Source: a phage. Taken from it: a stretch of 25,324 nt of DNA. The stretch lies in NCBI GenBank assembly GCA_015694865.1, contig GCA_015694865.1_3933.1. One strand, written 5' to 3'. The notes under the pieces were generated by a model. It was not told where the DNA came from, ran no database searches, and saw only the letters and a program-made list of their open reading frames with translations. Position numbers and translations under genes: made by a program. Within the stretch, counting starts at the first letter, position 1. Every line of letters starts with the position of its first letter. This document shows positions 12,138 to 17,029 of the stretch, in pieces.

Positions 12138-12213
12138 TGGTGGGGGATGTTGGAATTGAACCAACTTCTTCGATTTCAAAGACCGAGGTTTTAACCTTGT
12201 AAACTAATCCCCT
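12138..12213 (-). tRNA. tRNA-Gln (anticodon TTG)
   Basis: 76 nt; T-arm GTTGG-TTCAATT-CCAAC, D-stem GTTT/AAAC, anticodon stem TCGGT/ATCGA with loop CTTTGAA; position 1-72 is an A-C mismatch. Confidence 0.7.
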
Positions 12214-13269: not shown

Positions 13270-13364
13270 GTGAAAGAGGTCTGAAGTTGTGCCGCTAACT
13301 CAACTCCGTGGAATTTGTTACGGTCTTCAGTTGACACCAGCGGTCTTTCACTTGACCTCTGAAT

Positions 13365-13694: not shown

Positions 13695-13772
13695 TGGTAG
13701 GAGACAAGGGATTCGAACCCTCAAACACCAACTTCTAAGGATGGTAGGTTTACCAATTACCGTCAATCTCCC
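13695..13772 (-). tRNA. tRNA with Leu-type anticodon TAG but short variable region (atypical; isotype uncertain)
   Basis: 78 nt; acceptor GGGAGAT/GTCTCCT, T-arm GAGGG-TTCGAAT-CCCTT, anticodon loop CTTAGAA on stem CCATC/GTTGG; D-arm poorly paired. Confidence 0.45.
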
Positions 13773-14028
13773 ATTAAATCTTTTTAGAGAACTTCTAAGA
13801 ACCTAAGCAACAAGGTTCCACAACAAGCTGTAATAACCTTAGAAGCCCTCTAAAAAGACCTAAAAAGGTCTTTGCATAGTCTTGTTTAATCCGGTGACTA
13901 GAACCTTTGGAGAGCTTGATATTATCTCTTCTCCGTGACACCTACTAGGTGCTTTACTGTGCTTGTACGACAATACACGAGGGATACCAAAGCAACATCC
14001 GAATGAAGCTTGGCTTTAAACCTTATTA

Positions 14029-14118
14029 GGCGGTAAGTAAAGGAGTCGAACCCTCACCGTATCTCTACAGTGGCAACTGTTTTCAAGACAGTTTGGCTAC
14101 CATTAGCCGCTACCTACC
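14029..14118 (-). tRNA. tRNA-Ser (anticodon TGA), class II
   Basis: About 88 nt; acceptor GGTAGGT/ACTTACC, D-stem GGC/GCC, anticodon stem ACTGT/ACAGT with loop CTTGAAA, long variable arm, T-loop TTCGACT; only CC of CCA encoded. Confidence 0.7.
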
Positions 14119-14131
14119 CCTAATAAGACTT

Positions 14132-14214
14132 TGGCATGGGACGGAGGAGTTGAACCCCTTTGAAACGGTTTTGGAGGCCGTTGCTCATGCCTTAGAGTCT
14201 TAACATCGTCCCAT
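14132..14214 (-). tRNA. tRNA-Trp-like (anticodon CCA) with abnormally long D-region; possibly a tRNA-like ncRNA
   Basis: 83 nt; perfect 7-bp acceptor ATGGGAC/GTCCCAT, T-loop TTCAACT, anticodon arm ACGGC-CTCCAAA-ACCGT, but about 16 nt between the D-stem strands. Confidence 0.5.
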
Positions 14215-14433: not shown

Positions 14434-14636
14434 ATTAATCTTTAAAGACTCTCTTAGAAAGCCCTTAAAGATGCCCACCTTATTAATCATACCGTGGGCT
14501 AGTACGCCAAATTCTTTGATGAGGGATTGGAAGACCTCACTGGTGTTTAGCCTATCAAGCTACTGCCAGAAAAACATTGTCGTTTGCATTTATTTTAAAT
14601 TTGCAAAATAGACGCTACGCAACGAAAACTAAGGTT

Positions 14637-14665
14637 ACTATAAAGTAGTCACATCTCAATGTCAA
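14637..14665 (-). promoter_or_regulatory. sigma70-like promoter on minus strand (TTGACA-17 bp-TATAGT)
   Basis: Plus-strand tgtcaa at 14660-14665 and actata at 14637-14642 give, on the minus strand, -35 TTGACA, a 17-nt spacer and -10 TATAGT, pointing at tRNA-Arg(TCT) and downstream tRNAs. Confidence 0.55.
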
Positions 14666-14680
14666 CAACTTTATTGAAAT

Positions 14681-14757: not shown

Positions 14758-14834
14758 TGGAGGTTCAGATGGGATTCGAACCCATCGCCTGTCAGATTAA
14801 AAGTCTGCCGCATCACCATTCTGCTACACTTCCA
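14758..14834 (-). tRNA. tRNA-Lys-like (anticodon TTT) with poorly paired acceptor stem (possible pseudo-tRNA)
   Basis: Paralogous in sequence to the 13612..13687 tRNA-Lys; good T-arm ATGGG-TTCGAAT-CCCAT and anticodon arm GCAGA-CTTTTAA-TCTGA, but acceptor strands GGAAGTG vs CTGAACC pair at only 3 of 7 positions. Confidence 0.45.
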
Positions 14835-14837
14835 TTA

Positions 14838-14981
14838 AATTATCTTTGTAGATAAGCTACCCAGACTTGCTTAATGTCTGTAGCGATGTGCCTTTTTGGG
14901 TTTAAATCTAGAATTTACCCTTTCACCCTTTGTGGTCGCATACTCACAGGTAAGCTTAATAACTTATCTACAAAGATAATT
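14838..14981. repeat. 19-bp perfect inverted repeat (14838-14856 / 14963-14981) flanking a 106-bp non-coding segment
   Basis: aattatctttgtagataag at 14838-14856 is the exact reverse complement of cttatctacaaagataatt at 14963-14981. Confidence 0.7.
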
Positions 14982-15030
14982 ACCAGACCGTTGTTTATCA
15001 TCTTAAGTGCTACCATTACACCAACTCGAC

Positions 15031-15080
15031 ATCTGCCGAGTGAAGGAATCGAACCTTCGCCTTTTCTTTACCGGAGAAAT
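15031..15080 (-). ncRNA. tRNA-like fragment (T-arm plus 3' acceptor strand without a pairing 5' strand)
   Basis: Reverse complement gives TTTCT-CCGGTAA-AGAAA, then GAAGG-TTCGATT-CCTTC-ACTCGGC; no complementary 5' acceptor strand or recognisable D-arm within about 80 nt upstream. Confidence 0.35.
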
Positions 15081-15120
15081 AGATTGTTTAAGTTTTGCTG
15101 AATACGGTCTTCTGCAAAAT

Positions 15121-15197: not shown

Positions 15198-15287
15198 ATT
15201 CTCAATGACCAGACCAAATATCTTCTTTGTCCGATTTCGTGTCAGATGAGTAGATTAAGTTTGCTGTAATTGGTCTTCTGTCAAAAC

Positions 15288-15614: not shown

Positions 15615-17029
15615 TTACCAGATGTAACGGTCAATCATTACTGCTTTGAGCATTACACTGATTGGGTCAAACTTCTCACCACCAAGCAGAGCTTTTAAAG
15701 TAGCTGGAGAAAAACCAGATACCATTGCTACACCGTTATCCTTAACAGACACTTCGCAAGTACCATTACGGTTTGCTAAGTACCAGAATACCAGTTGAGG
15801 CATTTCGTATCCAGCTTTTTTGTACTTACTCTGAATTGCTTCAAAGTTTGTACGACCGTTAGCTCCATCAACCTGATTGAACTCCATATCGGAGAAGATG
15901 ATAAGCTTACTTGCATGTCTTTCTTAGTCAAGTTGTTTCTCTTACCTACCTCAAGAATCCGGTCAAAAGCTGCTTGTAAGTTAGTTGAGCCATATTCAAC
16001 ATGTCGCATCACCTGACGATGACGGTTTCGTAAATCACCACTCAGTTCGATGAAGTGAGGGTTTGTTGAATAAACCATTAACTCATCCTTAAAGCAACCT
16101 GTATTGCGTTCTGCTACATACAAGGCAAGGGATACACCAATATCAAGGGCAGTGATTGAACCAAGATTCACCCAAGACATTGAGCTTGAAACATCAGTCA
16201 TACACAAGATGTTTTCACCTTCTGCCATCCAGTTTGGTAGTGCTTTCCACTGCTCATTGGCAACATCTGCATTACCATGCTTGATAGACTTAATCACATC
16301 GTATGGGTAAACAGCACCAGCGTTAATCTTAGTCTCACCTTTTGATAAGGACTCAATGTAAGCTTTGTAACGTTCTCCATCCTTACGGTTAAACAGTTTT
16401 TGGTAACGTGCAGCAGCAAGTGAAGGAGTCTTACTGTAGTCAATCTTACCAAACTCATTAGCAGAGATTTTTTGCTCAACTGTATCAGATAGTGCAGACA
16501 ACAGTGTGCGGTACTCTTTCTCACTCAAGTTGGCAAACTTGCAGAAACGTTTTACAAACTGCTTATGACGTGGTTTGACTCGTGGTAACCACTTAGCCGC
16601 CAAACCTGCTGTTGCAGGTTCTAGTAATGCTGCTTCTAGATGTTTGAAGGCATCTGTCTCGAAACGAGTACCTACGAAGATTTTGAAGTCATCAAAACGA
16701 CCAAGTTCTGCAATCTTATCCATAATGCGAAGAACCTGCGTAGGCTCTAAAACTTTGTCTTCAATCGCTTGAAGTAAAACAGTTCTGAAGGCTTTACGCT
16801 CACCCATACCTTCTCGTACATCTCGCATATGAAGCAAAATACGAACTGCAACATCAACATCCTCACGCAAAGCTTTGTAGAACAGGTCTGGTAAGATTTC
16901 TACGTTGCTACGGCTTGAACCAGCAGCTTTGTAAAAGTCTACAAGAGCAGACATTGATGAAGTATGGTTTACAGCACCATTTTCAGTTCGACCTGCATGA
17001 AGGTGCGCATGTTTAAATAATTCGCTCAT
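15615..17029 (-). CDS. Ro60-like vWA-domain protein, interrupted by an apparent frameshift near 15885-15926
   Basis: Two overlapping minus-strand ORFs (15776..17029 and 15615..15887) in different frames; MIDAS-like TDVSSSM motif in the first; the second frame reads ...HASKLIIFSDMEFNQ..., typical of the end of a vWA fold. Ro60-like (DUF2828-type) assignment is from memory. Confidence 0.6.

What the first reader, a model, noticed from the sequence alone, without database searches (positions are those of the whole stretch)
13776..14028. 250-nt structured spacer with nested inverted repeats and a small hairpin
The spacer contains CTTCTAAG (13796-13803) pairing with CTTAGAAG (13843-13850) around an inner GAACC/GGTTC hairpin, followed by an AGACC-taaaaa-GGTCT hairpin with flanking T/A runs. 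It separates two tRNA sub-clusters and could hold an internal terminator, promoter or a small RNA.
Basis: seen in the sequence. Interest (0 to 1): 0.4.

Follow-up and report, generated by a model that had tools for sequence, protein, structure and literature searches.

The report
Conserved structured spacer RNA in phage tRNA array
The 256-base gap between two tRNA genes of this Felix O1-like phage encodes a chain of RNA hairpins, including a 24-base-pair stem kept by compensatory mutations and an almost invariant 80-base core. It is probably a processed non-coding spacer RNA rather than a promoter or terminator, and it sits in the same tRNA operon as a Ro60-like protein and an unannotated tRNA-mimicking Y RNA.

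Summary
The window is a Felixounavirus tRNA array on the minus strand, and the spacer 13773-14028 lies between tRNA-Ser(UGA) and tRNA-Leu(UAG).

In tRNA sense it folds into about seven hairpins:
- A hypervariable, terminator-like hairpin sits just after tRNA-Ser.
- An 80-nt core (13876-13955) is as conserved as the best tRNAs across three genera.
- A small AGACC/GGUCU hairpin has a hypervariable loop.
- A 90-nt hairpin has a 24-bp stem that is 98.5% paired in 17 variants, with compensatory changes. About 17% of its pairs are G·U, so it works only on the tRNA-sense strand. It ends 2 nt (13773-13774) before tRNA-Leu.

Similar long stems precede two other tRNAs. I found no sigma-70 promoter, no canonical terminator, no conserved ORF, no tRNA and no Rfam family in the spacer.

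Best reading (about 0.45): a processed spacer RNA whose long stem is an RNase III-type processing or stabilising element. The function of the core is unknown.

Main rival (about 0.2): a ligand of the adjacent Ro60-fold protein. I also found a YrlA-like permuted-tRNA Y RNA at 14985-15112, outside the finding.

The parts
13773..14028 (-). Whole spacer between tRNA-Ser(UGA) (upstream in RNA sense) and tRNA-Leu(UAG) (downstream). It is read as RNA on the minus strand.
   Evidence: tRNA map. Fold z = -3.6. Conserved at 80-99% in 254 phage records.
13986..14014 (-). Module 2: a hairpin that is hypervariable in sequence but always present. A U/C-rich tract follows it, making it terminator-like or a 3'-end stabiliser after tRNA-Ser. 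It is also an insertion hot spot.
   Evidence: At least six unrelated sequence versions all fold as a hairpin followed by UUU(U)CCCUC or UUUUUAC. In CHB7 a PD-(D/E)XK endonuclease gene is inserted between tRNA-Ser and this point. In this window it was not called by the terminator scan.
13964..13979 (-). Module 3: a small conserved hairpin, GUGUA(U)-loop-(G)UACAC.
   Evidence: RNAalifold pairs at columns 3-7 and 12-16 of A2. Two pairs (3-16 and 6-13) each carry a one-sided wobble-compatible change; three cells across these two pairs are unpaired (C.A x2, G.A x1).
13876..13955 (-). Ultra-conserved core. Predicted hairpins are H-a CACCU-AGU-AGGUG (13939-13951), H-b GGAGA...UCUCC (13909-13934) and H-c UAGUC-14 nt-GACUA (13877-13900).
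   Evidence: 97-100% identity across Felixouna-, Moogle- and Suspvirus, equal to the best tRNAs. Practically invariant in 31 distinct haplotypes, with the few substitutions all in predicted loops. One compensatory pair in H-c (U-A to C-G) occurs in the divergent loci L059 and L062. Thermodynamic stability is unremarkable (z = -1.15).
13854..13873 (-). Small hairpin AAAGACC-loop-GGUCUUU. The loop is hypervariable, with 1-2 nt indels. Its 3' arm and U-run overlap the base of the long hairpin.
   Evidence: 100% of cells are paired in 17 variants, with two wobble-compatible changes (A-U to G.U and C-G to U.G) that pair only on the minus strand. MFE -7.2 kcal/mol, z = -3.8.
13774..13863 (-). Long hairpin with a main stem of about 22-24 bp and a branched or short tip. 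It ends 2 nt (13773-13774) before the tRNA-Leu 5' end in the extended fold, or 4 nt (UAAU, 13773-13776) in the minimal one.
   Evidence: Inverted repeat I1. 98.5% of 408 cells are paired, 2 pairs show double changes in A1 and 4 pairs do in the long stem of the wider alignment A2 (the fifth double change there is in H-c). 70 of 408 cells are G.U. The stem is rewritten but still paired in L059 and L062.
13805..13813 (-). Apical loop UUGUUGCUU, pyrimidine-rich. Its UUGUUGCU part is invariant across all genera even though the stem below it changes.
   Evidence: Invariant columns in A1 and A2. Retained as AUUGUUGCU in L059 and L062.

Best explanation
The spacer is transcribed on the minus strand as part of the polycistronic tRNA precursor of a Felix O1-like phage. 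It is a functional, structured, non-coding spacer RNA.

**What is shown:**
- It folds into a series of hairpins.
- The last one, a helix of about 22-24 bp ending 2-4 nt before tRNA-Leu, is maintained at the RNA level on the tRNA-sense strand.
- It belongs to a set of three long stems that each sit directly 5' of the first tRNA of a sub-cluster.

**What is inferred:**
- The long stem is a double-stranded processing and stability element of the kind host RNase III uses in phage T7 early transcripts and in rRNA operon stalks. It has two helical turns of A/U-rich duplex.
- Together with RNase P cleavage at the tRNA 5' end, it cuts the precursor into sub-cluster units.
- After cleavage, a protective 3' hairpin remains on the upstream fragment.
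- That upstream fragment carries the 80-nt invariant core, which would persist as a small stable RNA. Its own role, whether protein binding or base pairing, is not yet known.
- The hypervariable hairpin after tRNA-Ser acts as a weak terminator or 3' stabiliser for the upstream unit.
For: **Strand and context.**
- All 22 tRNAs are on the minus strand.
- A strong promoter, TTGACA-17-TATAGT, lies at 14665-14637 upstream. It equals P45 of the Felix O1 genome paper PMC3185647.
- A good terminator appears only after the last tRNA, at 10699-10682. The spacer is therefore expected to be co-transcribed.

**RNA-level selection on the long stem.**
- 98.5% of cells are paired.
- Compensatory changes occur: U-A to G-C in 5 variants and U-A to C-G in 1.
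- Seven pairs show wobble-compatible one-sided changes.
- Sliding the partner by +/-1-3 columns drops pairing to 38-64%.
- Five double-change pairs appear in the structure on the wider alignment, four of them in the long stem.
- 17% of cells are G.U, which would be C.A on the other strand.
- The stem is 11 kcal/mol more stable on the minus strand.

**Helix length.** The stem matches the idealised E. coli RNase III substrate of 22 bp, two A-helical turns (PMC3867540).

**Recurrence.**
- I3 (14438-14472) and I2 (14838-14981) end 4-7 nt before tRNA-Arg(tct) and tRNA-Lys(ttt).
- The motif UCUUUnnAG...CUnnAAAGA occurs only at I1 and I2 in 25 kb, against 0.12 expected.
- More distant relatives carry 21-27 bp stalks ending 4-12 nt before tRNAs.

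**Independence from the tRNA.** In three relatives an HNH endonuclease gene follows the hairpin directly. This fits an inter-cistronic processing site rather than a tRNA-specific signal.

**Alternatives excluded.**
- Not coding: loop indels of 1-2 nt break the 48-aa ORF.
- No promoter or terminator.
- No Rfam family; only spurious miRNA-precursor hits, which merely reflect a long hairpin.
Against: - No transcript ends, cleavage sites or RNase III dependence are known for any Felixounavirus. I found no transcript-mapping paper.
- The invariant apical loop UUGUUGCU and the invariant 80-nt core are not needed for a mere RNase III site. They point to an additional sequence-specific function.
- In Moogle- and Suspvirus the stem has a U.C mismatch 8-9 bp from the base.
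- RNase III antideterminant positions could not be evaluated, because the cleavage site is unknown.
- The core is not thermodynamically unusual (z = -1.15), so its conservation is unexplained by this model.
Confidence: 0.45

Rival explanations
1. The spacer RNA is a ligand of the phage's Ro60-like protein, in other words a second Y RNA without a tRNA-like domain (YrlB type). The binding part would be the long hairpin with its conserved pyrimidine-rich loop, the AAGACC/GGUCU helix, or both. It would work alongside the YrlA-like RNA found at 14985-15112.
For: **A Ro60-fold neighbour.**
- The gene directly upstream of the array (15776-17029 plus the frameshifted tail 15615-15887, minus strand) has a Ro60/TROVE fold.
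- The AF2 model has pLDDT 88, and the top 7 PDB hits are all Ro60 proteins (E 2e-8 to 2e-7).
- The spacer is about 1.75 kb downstream on the same strand, within the 4 kb and same-strand criterion of Chen et al. 2014 (PMC4201824).

**Resemblance to described Y RNAs.**
- The present hairpin has exactly that form, with an invariant UUGUUGCU loop.

**A Y RNA in the same array.**
- A YrlA-like permuted tRNA-like RNA is present in the array.
- Its closing stem, and that of a shorter paralogue, read CAGAAGACC...GGUCUGG.
- The spacer's small hairpin reads AAGACC...GGUCU.

**Distribution and open partner.**
- Erwinia phage phiEa21-4, which lacks the Ro-like gene at this position, lacks the spacer element.
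- The PhageMaP preprint reports that Bas63 gp130, which is Ro60-like, counters the Ppl defence system. Its RNA partner is not identified (PMC11482910).
Against: - The spacer has no CGAA or GNCGAAN0-1G motif, read directly from the sequence.
- There is no Rfam YrlA or Y_RNA hit even at E <= 10.
- There is no significant sequence similarity to the Y-like spacer (z = 1.0).
- The AAGACC...GGUCU coincidence is not statistically significant.
- L060, L061 and L065 carry the Ro-like gene at 52-55% identity but have no detectable homologue of the spacer.
- The phylogenetic co-occurrence is confounded by relatedness.
Confidence: 0.2
2. The spacer is a transcription punctuation signal. The hairpin after tRNA-Ser, the AGACC/GGUCU hairpin with its U5 run, or both, terminate or attenuate transcription between the sub-clusters.
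For: - Module 2 is a hairpin followed by a U/C-rich run in every version.
- AAAGACC-loop-GGUCUUUUU has the A-tract, stem and U-tract layout, a conserved stem and a free loop.
Against: - Neither element passes the terminator scan in this window.
- The stems are weak (-7.2 kcal/mol).
- The window's module 2 tail is GGUAUCCC.
- No promoter lies downstream to restart transcription of the next eleven tRNAs.
- The U-run is constrained as the 5' arm of the long stem, since it covaries with the 3' arm.
- This model explains neither the core nor the 24-bp stem.
Confidence: 0.12
3. The element works at the DNA level. It could be an operator or phage-specific promoter, such as the palindrome CACCTA-C-TAGGTG, or a recombination or homing target. 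On this view the hairpins are incidental palindromes.
For: - The core is conserved in sequence rather than by strong structure (z = -1.15).
- It contains a perfect 13-bp palindrome.
- Both ends of the spacer are insertion points for endonuclease genes in relatives.
- A 9-nt direct repeat, AAGATTTAA, flanks the spacer in most relatives.
Against: - Strand-asymmetric G.U pairing and wobble-only substitutions in two hairpins are expected for RNA, not for DNA palindromes.
- H-c shows a compensatory change.
- No sigma-70 match was found.
- No second copy of any core motif occurs in the 25-kb window beyond chance.
Confidence: 0.08
4. The spacer is a decayed tRNA or a remnant of a mobile insertion with no present function.
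For: - Other spacers in this array do hold degenerate or atypical tRNA-like sequences, at 14138-14212 and 15041-15091.
- GGUUCUAGUC in the core faintly resembles a T-loop.
Against: - Near-invariance of the core in 31 haplotypes and three genera, while the flanking linkers vary freely, is incompatible with neutral decay.
- There is no tRNA covariance-model or ARAGORN hit.
Confidence: 0.05

Closest known systems
RNase III processing hairpins of phage T7 early transcripts and rRNA-operon processing stalks (E. coli RNase III substrates)
   Same: - A helix of about two turns (about 22-24 bp) lies between functional units of a polycistronic phage transcript.
- The helix is A/U-rich, and its structure is conserved with the sequence partly free.
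- After cleavage the stem would stay on the 3' end of the upstream RNA.
- The paralogue I2 encloses 100 nt, as an rRNA stalk does.
- The T7 and rRNA comparison itself rests on established knowledge, not on a test made here.
   Different: - Cleavage is untested.
- T7 sites have a characteristic internal loop that is absent here.
- This stem abuts a tRNA 5' end and carries an invariant apical loop that RNase III would not need.
Stable small RNAs encoded in phage tRNA clusters (T4 species 1 and 2 RNAs, rnaC and rnaD), recalled from memory
   Same: A non-tRNA, non-coding, conserved segment lies inside a phage tRNA operon and is expected to be released by the tRNA-processing nucleases.
   Different: No sequence or family relationship could be tested, and Rfam returned no relevant family hit. 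Accumulation of an RNA from this spacer has not been shown.
Bacterial and phage Y RNAs (YrlA, Rfam RF02553; YrlB-type long hairpins; Thermus phage phiLo Yrl1 and Yrl2)
   Same: - It lies within 4 kb of, and on the same strand as, a Ro60-fold protein.
[quoted passage not shown]
- It is co-transcribed with tRNAs.
   Different: - It has no CGAA or GNCGAA motif, no T or D arms and no covariance-model hit.
- The true YrlA-like RNA of this phage is a different spacer, 14985-15112.
Rho-independent terminators
   Same: It has hairpin plus U-run motifs: module 2 and the AGACC/GGUCU hairpin.
   Different: The stems are too weak, the U-tracts too short or interrupted, and there is no restart promoter.

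Membership tests
E. coli RNase III substrate (processing hairpin) | Continuous double helix of about 20-22 bp or more (two A-form turns) | tested here: met
   The 24-pair stem (main helix plus its basal extension; 22 bp in the single-sequence MFE) is 98.5% paired in 17 variants, with MFE -37.6 kcal/mol. The 22-bp idealised substrate is from PMC3867540.
E. coli RNase III substrate (processing hairpin) | The helix forms in the transcribed RNA strand | tested here: met
   G.U pairs make up 70 of 408 cells, and every one-sided change is wobble-compatible only on the minus strand, which is the tRNA sense. Transcription itself is inferred from the tRNA orientation and promoters.
E. coli RNase III substrate (processing hairpin) | No antideterminant base pairs in the proximal and distal boxes; actual cleavage by RNase III | not testable with these tools
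   The cleavage site is unknown. This needs an in vitro assay or a wild-type versus rnc comparison.
Rho-independent terminator | G+C-rich stem of at least 5 bp directly followed by a run of at least 5 U in 8 nt | tested here: not met
   No site in 13773-14028 on the minus strand was found in the scan. The small hairpin is -7.2 kcal/mol and its U-run is part of the next helix. Module 2 has better U-tracts only in some relatives.
Sigma-70 promoter | -35 and -10 hexamers at 16-18 nt spacing, conserved among relatives | tested here: not met
   No match with at least 9 of 12 positions lies in the spacer. The -10-like hexamers coincide with the only variable triplet of the core.
YrlA-type Y RNA (Rfam RF02553) | tRNA-like module (T arm, closed acceptor-like stem, D arm) plus a 5'/3' stem with GNCGAAN0-1G | tested here: not met
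   No YrlA or tRNA covariance-model hit in the spacer at E <= 10, and no CGAA in the sequence. A different spacer, 14985-15112, shows the T, AS and D architecture by eye and by fold, though it also gets no RF02553 hit.
YrlB/Yrn2-type Y RNA (long hairpin, small pyrimidine-rich loop; Chen et al. 2014) | Long hairpin with a pyrimidine-rich loop, encoded near Ro60 on the same strand | tested here: met
   A 90-nt hairpin with an invariant UUGUUGCU(U) loop, about 1.75 kb downstream of a Ro60-fold gene on the same strand. The description is quoted.
YrlB/Yrn2-type Y RNA (long hairpin, small pyrimidine-rich loop; Chen et al. 2014) | Ro60-binding motif (GNCGAA or CGAA) and Ro-dependent binding or accumulation | tested here: not met
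   The motif is absent from the spacer sequence. Binding cannot be tested with these tools.
tRNA or tRNA pseudogene | Cloverleaf detectable by ARAGORN or the Rfam tRNA model | tested here: not met
   No call in 13773-14028.
Small protein gene (annotated 'hypothetical protein' in some records) | Reading frame conserved among relatives | tested here: not met
   The 48-aa GTG ORF at 13795-13941 crosses the small-hairpin loop, which has 1-2 nt indels, and the 12-nt-shorter stem tip. Annotations differ between records.

The most novel reading that the evidence does not exclude
The spacer encodes a new class of phage Y-like RNA. The invariant 80-nt core, the AAGACC/GGUCU helix and the long hairpin with its invariant UUGUUGCU loop would form a second RNA partner of the Felixounavirus Ro60-like protein. 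That protein is the orthologue of Bas63 gp130, reported to counter the Ppl defence system. The spacer RNA would act together with the unannotated YrlA-like tRNA mimic at 14985-15112, for example by tethering or gating a host exoribonuclease during infection.
Probability: 0.2. Interest if true: 0.75.

Novelty: new member of a known kind. Interest (0 to 1): 0.5.

Why it matters
- **Spacers may be functional parts of the array.** Phage tRNA arrays are usually annotated as tRNAs plus junk spacers, and some records put spurious 'hypothetical proteins' on this one. Here at least one spacer is under RNA-level purifying selection as strong as that on the tRNAs.
- **Processing architecture.** Long stems placed directly 5' of sub-cluster tRNAs are a recurrent feature of Felix O1-like phages. 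They probably organise how the roughly 4.6-kb precursor is cut.
- **The Ro60-like system.** The same array follows a Ro60-fold protein that a recent screen links to anti-defence activity and whose RNA partner is unknown. The conserved non-tRNA RNAs mapped here are the obvious candidates to test: the YrlA-like RNA, its short paralogue and this spacer.

Tried and rejected
1. **Rfam.** Only tRNAs reached the gathering threshold. At E <= 10 the hairpin hit plant and animal miRNA-precursor models (MIR473, 32.7 bits against a gathering score of 52). This only reflects a long hairpin.
2. **Promoter and terminator scans.** Nothing was found in the spacer.
3. **Coding potential.** The 48-aa ORF is not conserved.
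4. **Leader-anticodon pairing.** The hairpin's 3' arm shares the 10-mer CUUAGAAGUU with the anticodon arm of tRNA-Leu(UAG). However, the two tRNA-Leu anticodon-stem alleles do not covary with hairpin type, so the match is incidental.
5. **Paralogy with the Y-like spacer.** Local alignment gives z = 1.0, which is not significant. The AAGACC...GGUCU pattern scan was also not significant.
6. **Motif recurrence of core 11-mers elsewhere in the window.** Chance level only.
7. **Host homologue.** There is no match in 5,426 E. coli genomes.
8. **More distant homologues.**
   - There is none in Erwinia phage phiEa21-4.
   - Two extra IMG/VR hits and seven metagenome hits were chance matches in coding or unrelated DNA.
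9. **Sequence-level link of the neighbouring protein to Ro60.** Neither phmmer nor a profile search against PDB found one. Only the fold search did.
10. **Supplement of Chen et al. 2014.** It is not held, so I could not check whether Felix O1-like phages were among their 22 phages.
Full report
**Setting**

The window is a Felix O1-like phage. A 701-nt query around the finding matches 256 phage records at 80-99% identity, mostly Escherichia, Salmonella and Shigella phages of the genus Felixounavirus. ARAGORN finds 22 tRNA genes, all on the minus strand, between 10862 and 15450, and Rfam confirms them.

The finding's spacer, 13773-14028, lies between tRNA-Ser(UGA) (14029-14118) and tRNA-Leu(UAG) (13695-13772). 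In RNA sense tRNA-Ser is upstream and tRNA-Leu downstream.

**Checking the observation**

- CTTCTAAG is at 13792-13799 and CTTAGAAG at 13838-13845.
- GAACC is at 13799-13803 and GGTTC at 13814-13818.
- AGACC-TAAAAA-GGTCT is at 13856-13871.

The inverted repeat is longer than reported, with 26-nt arms at 13774-13799 and 13838-13863.

On the plus strand it has an AA/CC mismatch. On the minus strand this becomes two G.U pairs, giving a continuous main stem of about 22-24 bp.
- The 96-nt segment folds at -37.6 kcal/mol (z = -6.7) on the minus strand and -26.2 kcal/mol on the plus strand.
- The whole spacer has z = -3.6 on the minus strand.

**Anatomy from comparison**

I collected the spacer from 50 or more loci: GenBank phages, IMG/VR, metagenomes, and contigs found through the neighbouring protein. 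In RNA sense the modules are as follows.

1. **Short linker.** It follows directly after tRNA-Ser.
2. **Module 2 hairpin (14014-13986).**
   - It exists in at least six unrelated sequence versions.
   - It always folds and is always followed by a U/C-rich tract.
   - In Suspvirus CHB7 a PD-(D/E)XK endonuclease gene is inserted between tRNA-Ser and this point.
3. **Small conserved hairpin (13979-13964).**
4. **Variable linker.**
5. **80-nt core (13955-13876).**
   - It is 97-100% identical across Felixouna-, Moogle- and Suspvirus, the same level as the best-conserved tRNAs. The hairpin tip next to it drops to 13%.
   - It is practically invariant in 31 distinct haplotypes, and the few substitutions all lie in predicted loops.
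6. **Small hairpin AAAGACC-loop-GGUCUUU.**
   - The loop is hypervariable, with 1-2 nt indels.
   - The stem changes only by A-U to G.U and C-G to U.G.
7. **The 90-nt long hairpin, then 2-4 unpaired nt (13773-13776, depending on the fold) and tRNA-Leu.**

**Evidence that the structure is selected as RNA**

On 17 distinct variants the 24-bp stem is paired in 98.5% of 408 cells.
- Two positions show compensatory double changes: U-A to G-C in five variants and U-A to C-G in one.
- Seven positions show one-sided, wobble-compatible changes.
- Sliding the 3' partner by one to three columns lowers pairing to 38-64%.
- Seventy cells are G.U and would be mismatches on the other strand.

Two more divergent loci, L059 and L062, carry a neighbouring protein only 60-61% identical to the window's.
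- They keep the element between tRNA-Ser(UGA) and a tRNA(UAG).
- The upper stem is rewritten but still paired.
- The apical loop keeps AUUGUUGCU.
- Core hairpin H-c shows a compensatory change, UAGUC/GACUA to UAGCC/GGCUA.

RNAalifold on 19 sequences predicts 54 pairs, five of them with double changes.

That consensus also reveals two alternative folds around GGUCU, and the data fit both.
- In one, the small hairpin forms.
- In the other, the long stem is extended at its base, and GGUU pairs with GACC to close H-c.

**What it is not**

- *Not a sigma-70 promoter.* No match was found, and the -10-like hexamers fall on the only variable triplet of the core.
- *Not a canonical terminator.* No site was found in the scan. 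The small hairpin is -7.2 kcal/mol, and its U-run covaries as part of the long stem.
- *Not a tRNA*.
- *Not a member of any Rfam family.* Only spurious miRNA-precursor hits appeared.
- *Not coding.* The 48-aa ORF that some records annotate is broken by indels in relatives.
- *No host or distant homologue.* There is none in E. coli genomes, none in the Erwinia phage phiEa21-4 array, and none outside this phage group in IMG/VR or metagenomes.

**A family of leader stems**

Two other long stems sit directly 5' of the first tRNA of a sub-cluster.
- I3 is at 14438-14472, a 16-bp stem at -17.4 kcal/mol (z = -4.3). It ends 4 nt before tRNA-Arg(UCU).
- I2 has arms at 14838-14859 and 14960-14981 that enclose 100 nt. 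It ends before tRNA-Lys(UUU).

The base motif UCUUUnnAG...CUnnAAAGA occurs only at I1 and I2 in the 25-kb window, against 0.12 expected. More distant relatives (L060, L061) have 21-27 bp stalks enclosing 120-140 nt and ending 4-12 nt before tRNAs.

In three relatives a 150-aa HNH endonuclease gene directly follows the hairpin, using the first 11 nt of the former tRNA-Leu as its ribosome-binding site. The stem therefore marks a boundary between transcript units rather than being tRNA-specific.

**Mechanism proposed**

- The array has strong promoters upstream: 15596-15568, 15505-15476 and 14665-14637. The last is P45 of the Felix O1 paper PMC3185647.
- A good terminator appears only after the last tRNA. 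That paper lists no terminator inside the array.
- The spacer is thus expected to be part of a long precursor.
- A 22-24 bp A/U-rich helix matches the idealised E. coli RNase III substrate of two helical turns (PMC3867540).

I infer that the long stem is a processing and stability element. RNase III would cut in the stem, RNase P would cut at the tRNA 5' end, or both. This separates the sub-clusters and leaves a 3' hairpin on the upstream fragment, which carries the invariant core as a small stable RNA.

This parallels T7 inter-cistronic RNase III sites and the stable species 1 and 2 RNAs of the T4 tRNA cluster. Both comparisons rest on established knowledge and my own recollection, not on tests made here.

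The model does not explain why the core and the UUGUUGCU loop are invariant in sequence. The core is not unusually stable (z = -1.15).

**The Ro60 and Y RNA context**

The ORF directly upstream of the array (15776-17029, minus strand) belongs to PHROG 850, 'RNA-binding protein', and to Pfam DUF2828 plus DUF7788.
- It is 33-35% identical to mycobacteriophage 'Ro-like RNA binding proteins' (E-values from about 1e-47 to 1e-61, best 1e-61).
- An AlphaFold model of the 98%-identical full-length orthologue has pLDDT 88. Its seven best PDB matches are all Ro60/TROVE proteins: Thermus phage phiLo, Xenopus and Deinococcus (E 2e-8 to 2e-7, TM up to 0.64).
- Sequence searches against PDB find nothing.

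A preprint reports that gp130 of the Felixounavirus Bas63 is Ro60-like, lies directly upstream of the tRNA genes and counters the Ppl defence system. Its authors speculate that some 'tRNA genes' are Y RNAs (PMC11482910).

I found such an RNA in a different spacer, 14985-15112 on the minus strand.
- It has a 7-bp closing stem (AGACCGU/ACGGUCU), a V hairpin, a T arm (GAAGG-UUCGAUU-CCUUC), a closed acceptor-like stem-loop and a D arm.
- Across genera the T and D arms are invariant. The acceptor-like stem has three unrelated but paired sequences.
- This is the pattern described for YrlA (PMC4201824).
- The Rfam YrlA model does not detect it. That model scores only 21.7 bits on a clear mycobacteriophage YrlA next to a homologous protein.
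- A shorter paralogue with the same CAGAAGACC...GGUCUGG stem lies at 15211-15277. L059 has three such elements, with covarying stem extensions.

**Does the finding belong to that system?**

For:
- It is on the same strand and about 1.75 kb from the Ro-like gene.
[quoted passage not shown] This describes the present hairpin.
- The small hairpin shares AAGACC/GGUCU with the Y-like stems.

Against:
- It has no CGAA motif and no model hit.
- It has no significant similarity to the Y-like spacer.
- The shared 6-mer is not statistically significant.
- Three Ro-bearing relatives lack the element.

I give this reading about 0.2.

**Verdict**

The promoter and terminator readings are not supported. The 'small or structured RNA' reading is supported.

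The element is best filed as a new member of a known kind: a structured, processed spacer RNA with an RNase III-type stem in a phage tRNA operon. It also carries an unexplained invariant core and may be linked to a phage Ro60/Y RNA system that deserves experimental follow-up.

Noticed in passing
window 14985-15112 (minus strand): An unannotated YrlA-like Y RNA candidate, in effect a permuted tRNA.
- It has a closing stem AGACCGU/ACGGUCU, a V hairpin, a T arm GAAGG-UUCGAUU-CCUUC, a closed acceptor-like stem-loop ACUCGGC-AGAU-GUCGAGU and a D arm.
- T and D arms are invariant across three genera.
- The acceptor-like stem has three unrelated but paired sequences.
- Rfam RF02553 does not detect it.
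   Followed up: partly
window 15211-15277 (minus strand), in spacer 15198-15287: A short paralogue of the Y-like RNA.
- It shares a 33-nt 5' segment with the Y-like spacer (z = 7.5).
- Its closing stem is AGACCAAU/AUUUGGUCU.
- L059 has three such CAGAAGACC...GGUCUGG elements with covarying stem extensions.
- The segment also contains TTGACA, and a CTGACA-17-GATATT promoter-like site lies inside it.
   Followed up: partly
window 15615-17029 (minus strand): A Ro60/TROVE-fold protein gene (DUF2828 plus a VWA-like domain; PHROG 850) lies directly upstream of the tRNA array. In this window it is split by a frameshift into ORFs 15776-17029 and 15615-15887, whereas relatives encode one 471-aa protein. 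This is either a sequencing error or a real frameshift.
   Followed up: partly
window 14131-14214 (minus strand): An unannotated atypical tRNA-like gene.
- It has a 7-bp acceptor stem AUGGGAC/GUCCCAU, discriminator G and an encoded CCA.
- Its T arm is AGGGG-UUCAACU-CCUCC.
- The anticodon-loop region contains CCA (Trp-like), with either a mismatched closing pair or a 9-nt loop.
- It scores only 23 bits against the tRNA-Sec model, and some GenBank records call it tRNA-OTHER.
- A perfect TATAAT lies just upstream.
   Followed up: no
window 13270-13364 (minus strand): The 95-nt spacer between tRNA-Thr and tRNA-Val is 99-100% conserved across genera. It folds well (-30.7 kcal/mol, z = -3.0) and has no Rfam or tRNA call. 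It is probably another small structured RNA.
   Followed up: no
window 14838-14981 (minus strand): A 22-bp stalk (95% complementary) encloses a conserved, branched 100-nt RNA and ends just before tRNA-Lys(UUU). It is homologous in L059. Analogous 21-27 bp stalks enclosing 120-140 nt lie 5' of tRNAs in L060 and L061.
   Followed up: partly
window 14434-14680 (minus strand): This spacer holds the strong promoter TTGACA-17-TATAGT (14665-14637, which is P45 of Felix O1). About 160 nt later comes a 16-bp leader hairpin (14438-14472) ending 4 nt before tRNA-Arg(UCU). In L059 the identical hairpin precedes an ORF instead of a tRNA.
   Followed up: no
L033 7364-7816 (also L023 and L025): In some relatives a 150-aa HNH endonuclease gene is inserted right after the long hairpin. 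The first 11 nt of tRNA-Leu (GGGAGAUUGAC) are retained as its Shine-Dalgarno region, and a different tRNA with anticodon UAG follows. This suggests homing-endonuclease-driven tRNA replacement.
   Followed up: partly
window 14758-14833 (minus strand): The 3' half of tRNA-Lys(UUU) in this window differs from that of all relatives, and the tRNA-Met that normally lies between Lys and Ile is missing. The gene looks like a deletion chimera. ARAGORN places the anticodon at an odd position, 30, and the Rfam score is 42.7 bits.
   Followed up: no
L006 1429-1770 (phage CHB7): A PD-(D/E)XK endonuclease gene is inserted between tRNA-Ser(UGA) and the conserved part of the spacer. Both ends of the spacer are therefore insertion hot spots for nuclease genes.
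   Followed up: no
window 13773-13785 and 14014-14028; relatives: A 9-nt direct repeat AAGAUUUAA flanks the whole spacer in most relatives; in this window the 5' copy reads AAGGUUUAA. It may be a target-site-like duplication, or simply the recurrent A/U-rich tRNA leader motif, which is also seen before tRNA-Gln at 12213.
   Followed up: no
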